The position numbers and the translations under genes were made by a program. Below are positions 4,005-31,798 of a stretch of 64,000 nucleotides of DNA, piece after piece. Below the pieces are notes generated by a model. It was not told where the DNA came from, made no database searches, and was given only the letters and a program-made list of their open reading frames with translations. The stretch spans positions 96,001 to 160,000 of the forward strand of contig JBGARZ010000012.1 in assembly GCA_044229975.1 (NCBI GenBank), in the 5' to 3' direction. This DNA comes from Polyangiales bacterium. Lineage in GTDB: Bacteria; Myxococcota_A; Polyangia; Polyangiales; Ga0077539. The first letter of the stretch is position 1; the number at the start of each line of letters is the position of its first letter.

Positions 4005-5120
4005 ATGACCCCCAACGCTCGCCATCTCGCCCTCCTCGTCCTGCTACCGCTCTCCCTCGGCTGTGGCGCCCGCGCCATCAGCGGCGGCAACGTCCCCGTC
4101 GACACCGACGCGGGCGTCATCGACGTAGTGCGCGGCGGCGGCTCCGACGCGGCCGTCTTCCCCGTCGACACGCTCGTCGCCCCCACCGACCGCGGCGTCG
4201 TCACCTTCGACATCATCCCGCTCCCCCGCGACGTGGTCACCGATCGTGGCATCGGTCGCACCGAGGCCGCCGTGGCGGGGCGCACCTCCGTCGTCGCGGG
4301 TCGACGCTGCACCGACGACTCGATGTGCGCGAGTGATACCGCCGACCTCTCGTGCCTCCCGCTGCCCGGCGGCAGCATCTGCTCCGGCCCCGAGCTGTGC
4401 GAGCAGGGAACCACTGCCAACGAAGAAGCCCAGTGCGGCGGTCGCTTCTCGACCTGCCTCGTCGTCGGCAATTTCGCGGGCGGCGGTCAGGCGAGCTTCT
4501 GCACTCGCGCGTGCGTTCCGACGGCCACCACCGAAGCGACCGGCGCATGCGCCACGGGCACCATCTGCACCACCAACTGGCTCCAGCTCACGGCGGGTCA
4601 GACCGAAAGCCCCGGGTGTCTGCCGCACTGCACGCGCGACGCCGACTGCGTCGGTGTCGAAGGCGAGGAAGGCCCGCTCGACCGCTGCAACGTCCGCACG
4701 GGCCGCTGCGGAACCGCTCCCGCCGACCTCACGCGACTCGCCGACGGCCTGCCGTGCGACCCGCAGGAGGCGCAGCGCACCATGGTGAGCCCGTGCCGCG
4801 GCGTGTGCTTCGCGCTGAGCGCGACGGCGCTGACGCAAGGACTCTGCGGGTCGTTCGTCGACCTGCGCACCGCGACGGGCTGCGCGGACGACCCCAGCAT
4901 CGAGCCGCGCGCCCCGACGGGCGATCACCTCGGCATCTGCATCTTCCGCCAGTGCGAAAACAACGCGCAGTGCCCGACGGGGCTGCTGTGCGCGTTCCGC
5001 GAAGACGCCTCGGGCATCCGCACCGACGTCCCGGCGACCTGCGCCTACGCGACGGCCCTGCAACCGATGGGCATCCCCGCGCCGGGCGCCGACGGCGGCG
5101 TGCCGCCGACTGACTCGTAG
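4005..5120 (+). CDS. cysteine-rich lipoprotein, function unknown
   Basis: Lipobox LSLGC; many Cys-rich modules (CTDDSMC, CTRDADC, CENNAQC). Confidence 0.75.
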   Translation: MTPNARHLALLVLLPLSLGCGARAISGGNVPVDTDAGVIDVVRGGGSDAAVFPVDTLVAPTDRGVVTFDIIPLPRDVVTDRGIGRTEAAVAGRTSVVAGRRCTDDSMCASDTADLSCLPLPGGSICSGPELCEQGTTANEEAQCGGRFSTCLVVGNFAGGGQASFCTRACVPTATTEATGACATGTICTTNWLQLTAGQTESPGCLPHCTRDADCVGVEGEEGPLDRCNVRTGRCGTAPADLTRLADGLPCDPQEAQRTMVSPCRGVCFALSATALTQGLCGSFVDLRTATGCADDPSIEPRAPTGDHLGICIFRQCENNAQCPTGLLCAFREDASGIRTDVPATCAYATALQPMGIPAPGADGGVPPTDS

Positions 5121-29608: not shown

Positions 29609-29649
29609 CGCGGCGGAAGCTAGTACCCGCGGCGGGTGGCGTCGACGGC

Positions 29650-29711
29650 GGGGACGGTTTCAGCTTTTCACCGTTGTGCGCGTGACAACGTGAAAAGCTG
29701 AAACCGTCCCC
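29650..29711. repeat. 22-bp perfect inverted repeat in the sppA / Y-RNA divergent intergenic region
   Basis: GGGGACGGTTTCAGCTTTTCAC (29650-29671) and GTGAAAAGCTGAAACCGTCCCC (29690-29711), with an inner GTTGT/ACAAC stem. Confidence 0.85.
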
Positions 29712-29828
29712 ACCCCTGGGAACCACCGATACGATCGTCTCGCCACCGATCCATTGATATCGCCTCTGTCGGACCCGATGGCGACGACACCCGCGGTTTT
29801 CGCCGCGATAGCGACGGCCCAACCCCTC

Positions 29829-29844
29829 TGGCACACCTCGCGCA
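29829..29844 (+). promoter_or_regulatory. sigma54 (-24/-12) promoter
   Basis: TGGCACACCTCGCGCA matches TGGCAC-N7-GCW with correct GG/GC spacing; predicts +1 near 29855, just before a C(UUCG)G hairpin (29861-29874) and the tRNA-like RNA. Confidence 0.75.
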
Positions 29845-29881
29845 ATGAGCCTCTGCGTCGGCCGCTTCGGCGGCGCGGCAC

Positions 29882-30013
29882 ACCAGGGTAGCTCAGTCGG
29901 TAGAGCACGAAACACCGCGCGCGATGTTCTCCCCGTCTCTAAGGGGAAGTGAGCGATGCGGTTACTTCACTCCTAATGACGTGGTCGTGGGTTCGAGTCC
30001 CATCCCTGGTACC
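29882..30013 (+). ncRNA. tRNA-like RNA (YrlA-related) with a 57-nt structured insert in the anticodon stem
   Basis: Acceptor ACCAGGG/CCCTGGT, D arm GCTC-AGTCGGTA-GAGC, T arm GTGGG-TTCGAGT-CCCAT, discriminator A then CC(G); anticodon arm CG|TCA-CTCCTAA-TGACG split by insert 29910-29966. Confidence 0.85.
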
Positions 30014-30100
30014 GGTGGCGCGACGGGAGCAGTGAGACGAACGGTTACTTCATCGAACGAAACAACACCGTTCGACGACGTTCTCTCCCGCCGCGACACC
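30014..30100 (+). ncRNA. Y RNA-like hairpin without a tRNA domain
   Basis: End-to-end pairing GGTG/CACC, CGGGAG/CTCCCG, CGAACGGT/ACCGTTCG; shares AGTGAG..CGGTTACTTCA and GAAAC..ACCG..GAYGTTCT with the insert of the preceding RNA; directly upstream of a TROVE gene. Confidence 0.75.
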
Positions 30101-30166
30101 TCATTCTCACCGCCCTCGCTGGAGGGCGCTTCTCGCCCGCCGTCGCGGGCGCAGTGGAGGTCCGCC

Positions 30167-31798
30167 ATGGGTCGCATCAACGTCGCGAAGTCTCTGATGA
30201 AGGTCTTCCGCCCCTTCTCGTCCGCCCCCGCGGGCTCGCACCTCAACTGGATGGGCGGCCCCTCCTACGACGTCCGCTCTCCGCTCGTGCGCCTGCGCGT
30301 CGCGGCGGCCTCGTGCTTCTTCGGCGAGCCCTCGTACTACCAGTCCGACGCTGGCGATCGGCGCCCCAAGCGCGCCCGCGCGTCCGCCCTCACCGACGCC
30401 CAGCGCGCACACCTCCGCGACACGCTGCACGCCATCGACCCCGACGACTGGCGCGACGCGACGCCCGCCGAGTTGATGGAGCGTGCCGTCGACGCCGCGC
30501 TCGCGGCCGACCCCGAGGGGACGCTTCGCCTCGCCGCGTGGCTGCGCGCCGAGGAGCACATCCGCACCACGCCGCAGGTCATCCTGGTGCGCGCGGCCAA
30601 CCACCCCTCCGTGCGCGGTACGGGCCTCGTGCGCCGCTACGCGCCGTCCATCATCCGGCGCGCCGACGAGCCCTCCGTCGGGCTCGCGTACCAGATGTGG
30701 CGCTTCGGCAAGCCGATCCCCAACGCGCTCAAGCGCGCGTGGCGCGACGCGCTCGCCGGGTTCAGCGCGTACGAGCTCGCCCGCTACCGCATGGAGGCGC
30801 GCGACGTGAAGACCATCGACGTCGTGAACCTCGTGCACGCGAAGTCGCCGCACATCGACGCGCTCGCGAAGGGTCAGCTCTCCACCTCGGGCGAGACCTG
30901 GGAGGCCATCGTGTCGGCACGCGGCTCCAACGCGTCGTCGTGGCGCGAGGCGCTGCCGACCATGGGCCACATGGCCCTGCTGCGAAACCTCCGCAACCTC
31001 CTCGGCGTGGGCGTCCGCGCGGACGAGTGGGCGGCGAAGCTCGCGGACGGCGCGCGCACCGGCAAGCAGCTCCCCTTCCGGTACTACTCGGCGTACCGCG
31101 CCGTGAAGAACGCCCCCGGCGCCTCGGGGGTCGCCCTCGACGCGATCGAGCGCTGCCTCATGACGTCGCTGGGCAACCTGCCCCGCTTCGCGGGTCGCGT
31201 GATGTCGCTCTGCGACAACAGCGGGTCGGCCCGCGGCGCGGCGACGTCGTCGATGGGCACCATGTCCGTCGCGACCATCGCCAACCTCACCGGCGTGCTC
31301 GCGGCGCAGCGCGCGGACGACGGCCGCGTGGGCGTCTTCGGTGATCGGCTGGAGGAGTACGTGGTGCGGCCCAACGCCTCGGTGCTCCAGCAGCTCGATG
31401 AGGTCGACCGCCTCGGCGAGAAGGTCGGCCAGGCCACCGAAAACGGCGTGTGGCTCTTCTGGGATCGCGCCATCCGCGAGCGGCAGCACTGGGACCACGT
31501 GTTCGTGTTCTCGGACATGCAGGCCGGACACGGCGGGCTCTACGGCACCGACCCGAAGTCCTACGCGGAGTTCGCCTGGTGCAAGACGAACTACATCGAC
31601 GTGCCCATGCTCGTCGCCGCCTACCGCGAGCGCGTGAACCCCAAGGTCAACGTCTACCTCGTGCAGGTCGCCGGGTACCAGGACACGCTGATGCCCGAGT
31701 TCTACGAGCGCACCTACGTGCTCGGCGGCTGGGGCGAAGGGCTGCTCCGCTTCGCCGCGGAGATGGCCGCCATCGCCGACGGCCCGTCGCGCAACTGA
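30167..31798 (+). CDS. Ro60-related TROVE/vWA RNA-binding protein (Rsr-like)
   Basis: TROVE: IIRRADEP, PNALKRA, YELARYR, DVVNLVH, TWEAIVS, MALLRNLRNL, KQLPFRYYSAY; vWA MIDAS CDNSGS and FSDMQ. Start at ATG 30167 after GGAGG. Confidence 0.92.
   Translation: MGRINVAKSLMKVFRPFSSAPAGSHLNWMGGPSYDVRSPLVRLRVAAASCFFGEPSYYQSDAGDRRPKRARASALTDAQRAHLRDTLHAIDPDDWRDATPAELMERAVDAALAADPEGTLRLAAWLRAEEHIRTTPQVILVRAANHPSVRGTGLVRRYAPSIIRRADEPSVGLAYQMWRFGKPIPNALKRAWRDALAGFSAYELARYRMEARDVKTIDVVNLVHAKSPHIDALAKGQLSTSGETWEAIVSARGSNASSWREALPTMGHMALLRNLRNLLGVGVRADEWAAKLADGARTGKQLPFRYYSAYRAVKNAPGASGVALDAIERCLMTSLGNLPRFAGRVMSLCDNSGSARGAATSSMGTMSVATIANLTGVLAAQRADDGRVGVFGDRLEEYVVRPNASVLQQLDEVDRLGEKVGQATENGVWLFWDRAIRERQHWDHVFVFSDMQAGHGGLYGTDPKSYAEFAWCKTNYIDVPMLVAAYRERVNPKVNVYLVQVAGYQDTLMPEFYERTYVLGGWGEGLLRFAAEMAAIADGPSRN

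What the first reader, a model, noticed from the sequence alone, without database searches (positions are those of the whole stretch)
30014..30100. Second RNA carries the same bipartite motif in swapped order, without a tRNA body
Seen: strand X (GGG.(A/C)AGTGAG...CGGTTACTTCA) and strand Y (CGAAAC..ACCG...CGA(T/C)GTTCT.CCC) occur as Y then X in the tRNA insert (29908-29969). They occur as X then Y in this hairpin (30024-30090). The stems differ in sequence but still pair (ACCGC/GCGGT versus CGAACGGT/ACCGTTCG), which is covariation within one locus. Where RNA 1 has the whole tRNA, RNA 2 has only a short loop (TCATCGAACG). GACGAACG at 30036-30043 fits the GNCGAAN(0-1)G motif I recall for the YrlA Rsr-binding strand. 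Inference: the two RNAs are circular permutations of one protein-binding module, and RNA 2 may be a minimal Y RNA, a decoy, or a 5'-UTR autoregulatory site for the TROVE gene.
Basis: partly seen in the sequence, partly recalled or inferred. Interest (0 to 1): 0.75.

Follow-up and report, generated by a model that had tools for sequence, protein, structure and literature searches.

The report
Minimal Y RNA with new handle
A small conserved hairpin gene in front of a bacterial gene for a Ro60-type RNA-binding protein is likely a stripped-down partner RNA of that protein; it carries a predicted docking stem unlike the textbook one, and the same stem recurs, alone or attached to tRNA-shaped bodies, beside a large separate branch of these proteins in bacteria and phages.

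Summary
RNA 1 (29882-30013, tRNA-shaped) and RNA 2 (30014-30100) share one two-strand module in opposite order, and both stems covary across relatives. The conserved 5' strand is GCAGUGA..GGUUACUUC, paired to a 3' UUCUC with one bulged base. RNA 2 has the normal Y-RNA topology; RNA 1 is the permuted one. The module occurs as a bare hairpin, in YrlA order and in tRNA order, nearly always beside a TROVE/Ro60 gene on the same strand. Copies also lie downstream of the gene, in arrays, and once at a locus without TROVE, so a leader operator is unlikely. Best reading: a YrlB/Yrn2-like second Y RNA, likely cut from a sigma54 transcript, that binds Ro60 without an effector domain. The kind is known. 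The handle is in no Rfam family and in none of the papers I could read. Binding, expression and RNA ends are untested. The scan earlier noted tRNA-order Y RNAs in cyanobacteria and handle-bearing RNAs in phages.

The parts
29829..29844 (+). sigma54-type -24/-12 promoter element (GG-N10-GC), predicted
   Evidence: Sequence; strict match upstream of 32 of 37 distinct tRNA-order loci, background 0.001 per 135 nt
29855..29880 (+). leader hairpin with UUCG loop; present in some orthologs only
   Evidence: Fold z -2.2; absent in L005-L008 and L010
29882..30013 (+). RNA 1: tRNA-order Y-like RNA (7-bp acceptor, D arm, Y-X module capped by a loop, variable anticodon-like hairpin, T arm, ends A-C-C)
   Evidence: 24 different anticodon-region 16-mers among 46 rows
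29908..29934 (+). Y strand of the handle in RNA 1
29943..29969 (+). X strand of the handle in RNA 1
30014..30100 (+). RNA 2: minimal handle-only hairpin, YrlB/Yrn2-like; ends predicted
   Evidence: Fold z -3.0; covariation; models R1 and R2
30029..30036 (+). conserved GCAGUGAG strand with bulged C30030; predicted protein-recognition site
   Evidence: position matches GNCGAAN(0-1)G in the YrlA alignment
30036..30043 (+). GACGAACG: chance match to the YrlA motif, part of the variable inner stem
   Evidence: 1 of 71 hairpins, 0 of 46 tRNA-order rows
30043..30051 (+). conserved GGUUACUUC core at the end of the inner stem, shared with the GGUUAY of YrlA
30058..30090 (+). Y strand of RNA 2 (A-rich run, inner-stem 3' strand, UUCUC, outer-stem 3' strand)
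30101..30149 (+). pyrimidine-rich tail and two small hairpins between RNA 2 and the ribosome site; possible 3' processing region
   Evidence: pyrimidines 0.67 after the outer stem against 0.49 locus mean, 67 loci
30156..30160 (+). Shine-Dalgarno GGAGG
30167..31798 (+). TROVE/Ro60-type gene (543 aa) of a clade distant from canonical Rsr
   Evidence: Pfam TROVE E 7.5e-13; profile hit to phage phiLo Ro60 structures E 5e-24; tree

Best explanation
RNA 2 is a conserved hairpin that is likely a separate small RNA partner of the neighbouring Ro60-type protein: a bare docking stem with no effector domain, playing the part of YrlB or Yrn2. Steps: (1) a sigma54 promoter, probably driven by RtcR, would make one transcript RNA 1 - RNA 2 - TROVE mRNA (promoter conservation shown, activity inferred). 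(2) tRNA 3' processing of RNA 1 would free the 5' end of RNA 2, which starts right after RNA 1's A-C-C; a cut in the pyrimidine-rich tail would free its 3' end (adjacency shown, cuts inferred). (3) The ring protein would bind the outer stem with the bulged base and the GCAGUGA/UUCUC strands (conservation and covariation shown, binding inferred). (4) RNA 1 would tether the ring to tRNA-recognising partners, while RNA 2 would occupy the same surface with no cargo, and so gate or buffer the ring (inferred from the Deinococcus model).
For: Covariation: 10 of 14 pairs change on both sides, 91.9% of cells pair against 45-58% in slid controls (43 sequences). Alignment-free swap test on 66 hairpins: outer stem 46 with at least 4 of 5 Watson-Crick pairs against at most 10 when partners are swapped, inner stem 36 against at most 11. 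Within 22 loci each RNA pairs with itself better than across RNAs. Linkage: 13 of 14 whole-genome hits in 61 relatives lie within about 0.6 kb upstream of a TROVE gene, and 11 of 11 genomes with a close ortholog have one. In 151 genomes of the phylum all 5 hits lie beside such a gene. RNA-first metagenome scan: 32 of 48 structured matches have TROVE on the same strand, none only on the other, against 4 of 25 unstructured ones. The same handle closes YrlA-order RNAs that score on Rfam YrlA below its cut-off, among them the published phage G and CcrColossus YrlA candidates. Non-leader copies: downstream only in L090 and L097, arrays in L112, L159, phage G and CcrColossus, and an RNA 1 + RNA 2 cassette in front of a CARF gene. 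Precedent: M. smegmatis YrlA and YrlB lie upstream of rsr and are processed from one precursor (PMC4201824). sigma54 site at 32 of 37 loci; rtcR directly upstream in 3 of 38 loci scanned.
Against: The published recognition motif GNCGAAN(0-1)G is absent from the family. The only studied protein of the wider clade, phiLo Ro60, was shown to bind CGAA-bearing RNAs, with 3- to 4-fold loss on mutating CGAA (PMC12135203). 16 of 48 structured metagenome matches had no TROVE gene in the DNA held, 8 of them with at least 1 kb of 3' room. In most Myxococcota loci the bare hairpin is the last element before the start codon (median 58 nt), which a leader role would also predict. In this genome the outer stem has probability 0.01 when RNA 2 is folded with the leader and 30 nt of coding sequence, although it forms in 42 of 51 loci. 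Many loci are close kin (Sorangium), so the counts overstate independence.
Confidence: 0.68

Rival explanations
1. Dual or leader role: RNA 2 stays at the 5' end of the TROVE mRNA after RNA 1 is cut off, and protein binding there changes mRNA stability or translation (autoregulation).
For: A bare hairpin is usually the last element before the gene, about 50-100 nt from the ATG. By a rough script 17 of 79 genome loci show a hairpin alone upstream. No T-run terminator follows it in the window.
Against: The distance to the ATG runs from 6 to 1385 nt. Forcing the outer stem changes ribosome-site accessibility by more than 0.15 in 1 of 51 loci, and hairpin-to-site pairing of 3 nt or more occurs in 2 of 51. 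Copies lie downstream only, in arrays or in mid-array, and before an unrelated gene. L062, L086 and L096 have RNA 1 with no full hairpin after it.
Confidence: 0.17
2. The handle binds a partner other than the TROVE protein (a host nuclease, a tRNA enzyme or another neighbour), or TROVE binds it only non-specifically.
For: The canonical motif is absent. Some structured copies lack a nearby TROVE gene, and one YrlA-order copy in this genome sits beside an HNH gene. Earlier scan notes describe handle arrays beside non-Ro proteins (unchecked).
Against: Near-exclusive same-strand linkage with one TROVE clade across phyla and phages. Basic residues and the histidine of the RNA-binding helices align with phiLo Ro60 (numbering offset inferred by me).
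Confidence: 0.1
3. RNA 2 is a decayed duplicate of RNA 1 or of a YrlA, kept only as a stabilising or processing hairpin.
For: Tandem position and shared strands suggest an origin by duplication.
Against: Unpaired bases stay invariant while both stems covary across several phyla and phages. RNA 2's stems pair better than RNA 1's. It persists where RNA 1 is missing.
Confidence: 0.04

Closest known systems
YrlB (S. Typhimurium, M. smegmatis) and Yrn2 (D. radiodurans); Chen et al. 2014, PMC4201824 (parts 1-3 of 5 of the main text and supplements 1, 2, 3, 5 read; Table S1 searched by term)
   Same: Second RNA beside Ro60/Rsr; long hairpin whose 5' and 3' ends form the stem; no full tRNA domain. In M. 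smegmatis the order YrlA-YrlB-rsr and co-transcription match this layout.
   Different: No GNCGAAN(0-1)G. Both strands of the docking helix are conserved here, whereas the paper finds only the 5' strand recognisable in YrlA/B. No T arm. A wide family with covariation, whereas YrlB searches found only Salmonella orthologs.
YrlA (Rfam RF02553; PMC4201824; bioRxiv 10.1101/312249, parts 1-2 of 4 read)
   Same: GGUUAY core after the 5' stem, then V/anticodon-like hairpin and T arm; D arm followed by an A-rich run. The handle closes YrlA-order RNAs in this family (28-43 bits, below the cut-off of 69).
   Different: RNA 2 lacks the tRNA body. RNA 1 has the body in native tRNA order with free acceptor ends and a capped handle. 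The 5' motif is GCAGUGAG rather than GNCGAAG.
phiLo Ro60 with Yrl1/Yrl2 (PMC12135203; passages and supplement primer rows read; PDB 9KOP, 9L5Y)
   Same: Closest solved protein (E 5e-24); binds a short stem-bulge-stem RNA without a tRNA body.
   Different: Its RNAs were chosen by a CGAA motif upstream of the gene and do not match this handle. Two handle-like hairpins lie downstream of that gene instead (weak model scores).
rtcR-controlled rsr-yrlBA-rtcBA operon of Salmonella (PMC7790460; passages read)
   Same: sigma54-type promoter; rtcR directly upstream in 3 relatives; rtcR-rtcB present elsewhere in this genome.
   Different: RNAs lie upstream of the Ro60 gene; no rtcB or rtcR in the flanking genes here; the protein belongs to a distant clade.

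Membership tests
Bacterial Y RNA (YrlB/Yrn2-type) | Encoded within about 4 kb of a Ro60 ortholog on the same strand | tested here: met
   67 nt upstream here; 13 of 14 and 5 of 5 whole-genome hits
Bacterial Y RNA (YrlB/Yrn2-type) | Long stem formed by the 5' and 3' ends, with a bulged helix or internal loop | tested here: met
Bacterial Y RNA (YrlB/Yrn2-type) | GNCGAAN(0-1)G (or GGUCCGA) in the 5' strand | tested here: not met
   1 of 71 hairpins, and there inside the variable stem
Bacterial Y RNA (YrlB/Yrn2-type) | Small pyrimidine-rich apical loop | tested here: inconclusive
   The loop is about 21 nt, pyrimidine-rich in its 5' part and A/C-rich in its 3' part
Bacterial Y RNA (YrlB/Yrn2-type) | Bound and stabilised by Ro60/Rsr | not testable with these tools
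   No RNA-protein binding tool; needs EMSA or immunoprecipitation
Bacterial Y RNA (YrlB/Yrn2-type) | Accumulates as a discrete 80-130 nt RNA | not testable with these tools
   Only contigs were available
YrlA (RF02553) | tRNA-like domain in T-AS-D order inside the binding stem | tested here: not met
   RNA 2 has none; RNA 1 has native D-...-T order
YrlA (RF02553) | Covariance-model score at or above 69 bits | tested here: not met
   No YrlA match at the locus (one search scored 150 of 1256 candidates)
Cis-acting autoregulatory leader | Fixed 5'-UTR position and structural coupling to the ribosome site | tested here: not met
TROVE/Ro60 protein (neighbour) | TROVE domain with vWA C-terminus | tested here: met
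   Pfam above cut-off; profile match to phiLo Ro60 over positions 99-362; no fold predicted here

The most novel reading that the evidence does not exclude
A second Ro60/Y-RNA system with its own recognition code. A large TROVE clade in Myxococcota, Chloroflexota, Armatimonadota, Bacillota, Deinococcus and many phages uses a GNNGYR..GUUACUUC / UUCUC handle on sets of RNAs with interchangeable cargo (none, T-loop, YrlA body, whole tRNA with true ends). The cargo-less RNA 2 is the built-in competitor that sets how much Ro60 is loaded with tRNA mimic. The true partners of the solved phiLo Ro60 would then be two unstudied hairpins downstream of its gene.
Probability: 0.45. Interest if true: 0.68.

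Novelty: new variant of a known kind. Interest (0 to 1): 0.5.

Why it matters
Second, tRNA-less Y RNAs were known from three species, were found by pull-down, and escaped homology search (PMC4201824). Here they form a searchable family with covariation in both stems. That gives a natural minimal ligand of about 70 nt and a different consensus for Ro60 recognition. The pair RNA 1/RNA 2 is a natural deletion experiment: same handle, with and without the tRNA body, from one promoter. It makes the open question of what the tRNA-like domain does directly testable in cultured hosts (Sorangium, Deinococcus xinjiangensis, phage G) and with the already purified phiLo protein.

Tried and rejected
Rfam: no family above cut-off at the locus. 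Weak hits to tRNA, a snoRNA, CC3552, a CRISPR repeat and miRNAs were set aside as chance or partial. RNA 1 as a decoding tRNA-Arg(CCU): rejected, the anticodon-like loop varies among orthologs and the genome has two ordinary tRNA-Arg(CCT) genes. Cross-pairing of RNA 1 and RNA 2 strands: weaker than self-pairing. A GCAGT copy next to the start codon as a second operator: 5 of 67 loci only. A first inner-stem swap test with a long search window separated poorly (7.06 against 6.41) and was replaced by the anchored test. Expression: no RNA holder listed; contigs laid say nothing on ends or level. The careful tree did not finish; only the quick tree is used. The regex classification mislabels some hairpins and is used only as a rough guide. 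A Pfam scan of the short phiLo reading frame gave nothing informative. Three reviews could not be opened (one search was a further failed id), so they may describe things I have not seen. No structure or complex was predicted.

Full report
Observation. In the tRNA-shaped RNA 1 (29882-30013) Y is at 29908-29934 and X at 29943-29969. In RNA 2 (30014-30100) X is at 30024-30052 and Y at 30058-30090. The X strands agree at 18 of 24 positions. RNA 2 folds alone at z -3.0 into an outer stem, an internal loop, an inner stem and an apical loop. ARAGORN finds no tRNA in the window, and Rfam gives nothing above cut-off. The next gene (ATG 30167) is a TROVE protein. Its alignment profile matches the phiLo Ro60 structures at E 5e-24 and one further RO60 entry at E 0.006, with no other hit at E 0.01. 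Homologues named by their sources are from Polyangiales and other Myxococcota.

Conservation. Of the 11 loci with a close ortholog among 61 genomes, 10 show RNA 1 then RNA 2 and one shows RNA 2 alone. I added 79 genome loci and 80 viral loci. A strict pattern found 172 modules in 107 of 176 loci: 110 hairpin-like, 46 in tRNA order, 5 in YrlA order, 11 with a T arm only. After dropping 2 misclassified rows and duplicates, 71 distinct hairpins remained, 66 of which could be anchored on the 3' motif. Their stems pair with their own partner far better than with swapped partners: at least 4 of 5 Watson-Crick pairs in 46 (outer stem) and 36 (inner stem), against maxima of 10 and 11 over 2000 swaps. 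I aligned 43 of 60 candidate hairpins, leaving out mainly long-loop ones. RNAalifold gave 14 pairs with one bulged base in the 5' strand. Ten pairs change on both sides, and 91.9% of cells pair against 45-58% when slid. That structure came from the same alignment, so the swap test is the cleaner control. In 22 loci with both RNAs, self-pairing beats cross-pairing (inner stem 3.6 and 4.3 against 2.3 and 2.5 of 5).

The motif. GNCGAAN(0-1)G occurs in the 5' strand of 1 of 71 hairpins, this one, and of 0 of 46 tRNA-order rows. It matches 164 times in the window. The conserved bases are GCAGUGA, GGUUACUUC and UUCUC, relaxing to G-N-N-G..GNUACUUC..UYCYC in a wider set of 30. In the published YrlA alignment GNCGAAG lies about six bases before GGUUAY, which is the place of GCAGUGAG here. 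So the module is the positional counterpart of the Rsr-binding stem with a different sequence. The single bulged base followed by purine-pyrimidine pairs resembles the metazoan Ro60 helix (bulged helix mentioned in PMC4201824; base-level detail recalled).

Topology. The same handle closes YrlA-order RNAs in Deinococcus xinjiangensis, Armatimonadota, Lachnospiraceae, phages and contig C21 of this genome. These score 33-43 bits on Rfam YrlA, under its cut-off of 69. The putative YrlA listed for phage G and the three listed for CcrColossus in Chen et al. 2014 carry variants of this handle. The neighbouring handle RNAs of those phages, five in phage G and five more in CcrColossus, are not in that table. 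RNA 2 therefore has the ordinary Y-RNA topology with ends in the stem. RNA 1 is the permuted form, in native tRNA order. Its anticodon-like loop is not conserved, and the genome has ordinary tRNA-Arg(CCT) genes.

Linkage to the protein. Model R1 gave 188 hits in 173 loci, all on the TROVE strand (these include most of the training sequences). In whole genomes, 13 of 14 hits lie just upstream of a TROVE gene. The exception is a full promoter-RNA 1-RNA 2 cassette before a Cas_NE0113 CARF gene. With the wider model R2, 3 of 151 genomes of the phylum have hits, all 5 beside a strong TROVE match. The 146 genomes without a protein match and the 2 with weak matches only have none. In the 80 of 121 loci with fetched flanks, 32 of 48 structured matches had TROVE on the same strand, against 4 of 25 unstructured ones; 16 structured ones had none in the DNA held. 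A quick tree of 61 proteins that I chose separates 3 canonical Rsr-like proteins from the other 58 by a long branch. The handle pattern lies beside 52 of the 58 (40 of 46 without the rows picked by the RNA) and beside 0 of the 3, two of which have GNCGAA-type YrlA candidates. Three rows are a thin sample, so handle-clade matching is a lead. phiLo Ro60 falls among the 58 on a long branch and was shown to bind CGAA RNAs, which counts against a strict code.

Free RNA or leader. A sigma54 -24/-12 site lies upstream of 32 of 37 distinct tRNA-order loci, many of them close kin. rtcR is directly upstream in 3 of 38 loci scanned (132 of 146 frames given), and rtcR-rtcB is elsewhere in this genome. RNA 2 starts right after RNA 1's A-C-C and is followed by a pyrimidine-rich tail. 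The distance to the first in-frame ATG is 6-1385 nt, median 58, in 67 loci. Folding with the leader shows no conserved coupling to the ribosome site (1 and 2 of 51), although in this genome a competing fold is favoured by 2.7 kcal/mol. Bare hairpins occur downstream only (L090, L097), on both sides (L126, L253) and inside arrays. With the M. smegmatis precedent this favours a released RNA. A leader role in Myxococcota is not excluded.

Comparison and novelty. It works like YrlB/Yrn2. It fails the published motif test and the YrlA model, so I do not file it under YrlA or YrlB proper. Seven paper searches showed no description of this handle or of tRNA-order Y RNAs. For most papers I saw only the listing and the start of the abstract; I also read passages of PMC7824862. 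The Wolin-group reviews of 2018-2020 were not held, and bioRxiv supplements are closed, so prior mention is possible. Earlier scan notes report tRNA-order Y RNAs in cyanobacteria and handle-bearing RNAs in phages; I did not check whether their handles are this one. Verdict: a real, conserved new variant of a known kind; binding and ends untested; interest 0.5.

Noticed in passing
L207 (phage phiLo, reverse strand) 4364-4444 and 4559-4648: Two hairpins downstream of the phiLo Ro60 gene fold at z -4.4 and -4.6 and carry GNAG..GGUACUUC..UUUCC. Model R2 scores them weakly (E 0.024 and 0.43). The region of the published Yrl2 upstream folds no better than shuffles (z -0.3) and overlaps a short reading frame that looks to me like the start of an NYN-type gene (recalled; Pfam gave no support)..
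   Followed up: partly
L349 (CcrColossus) 1070-2280; L205 (phage G) 2190-2875: Arrays of about eight and five handle RNAs with different inserts upstream of the TROVE gene; most are not in the 2014 table.
   Followed up: partly
L032 5614-5752 (G000:C21): YrlA-order RNA with the GCAGUAC handle variant, after an HNH gene and a tRNA-Thr-like gene; no TROVE gene in the 9 kb read.
   Followed up: partly
L033 5462-5635 (G000:C2): The second TROVE paralog of this genome has two tandem handle hairpins (GCAGUAC..GGAUACUUC..CCUC) after a tRNA-Arg(GCG) gene.
   Followed up: partly
L222 1500-1740, minus strand (G009:C383): sigma54 site, RNA 1 and RNA 2 in front of a Cas_NE0113 CARF-family gene; the TROVE gene of that genome, on another contig, keeps only RNA 2. 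L309 and L341 hold a similar RNA pair.
   Followed up: partly
window 29649-29712: 64-nt palindrome with many dispersed relatives in the genome, a REP-like repeat unrelated to the RNAs.
   Followed up: partly
upstream of the sigma54 site in L054-L113 and G000:C32:703100-703170: Repeated TATC/GATA half-sites 60-110 nt upstream of the promoter in many Myxococcota loci and between rtcR and rtcB; possible activator site, seen by eye only.
   Followed up: no
L070, L119, L121: rtcR lies directly upstream of RNA 1 on the same strand; in L119 rtcB is divergent from it.
   Followed up: no
L015, L016, L019-L021: Relatives of the second paralog are preceded by clusters of odd tRNA-like genes, with no strong match to the handle in those searched.
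   Followed up: no
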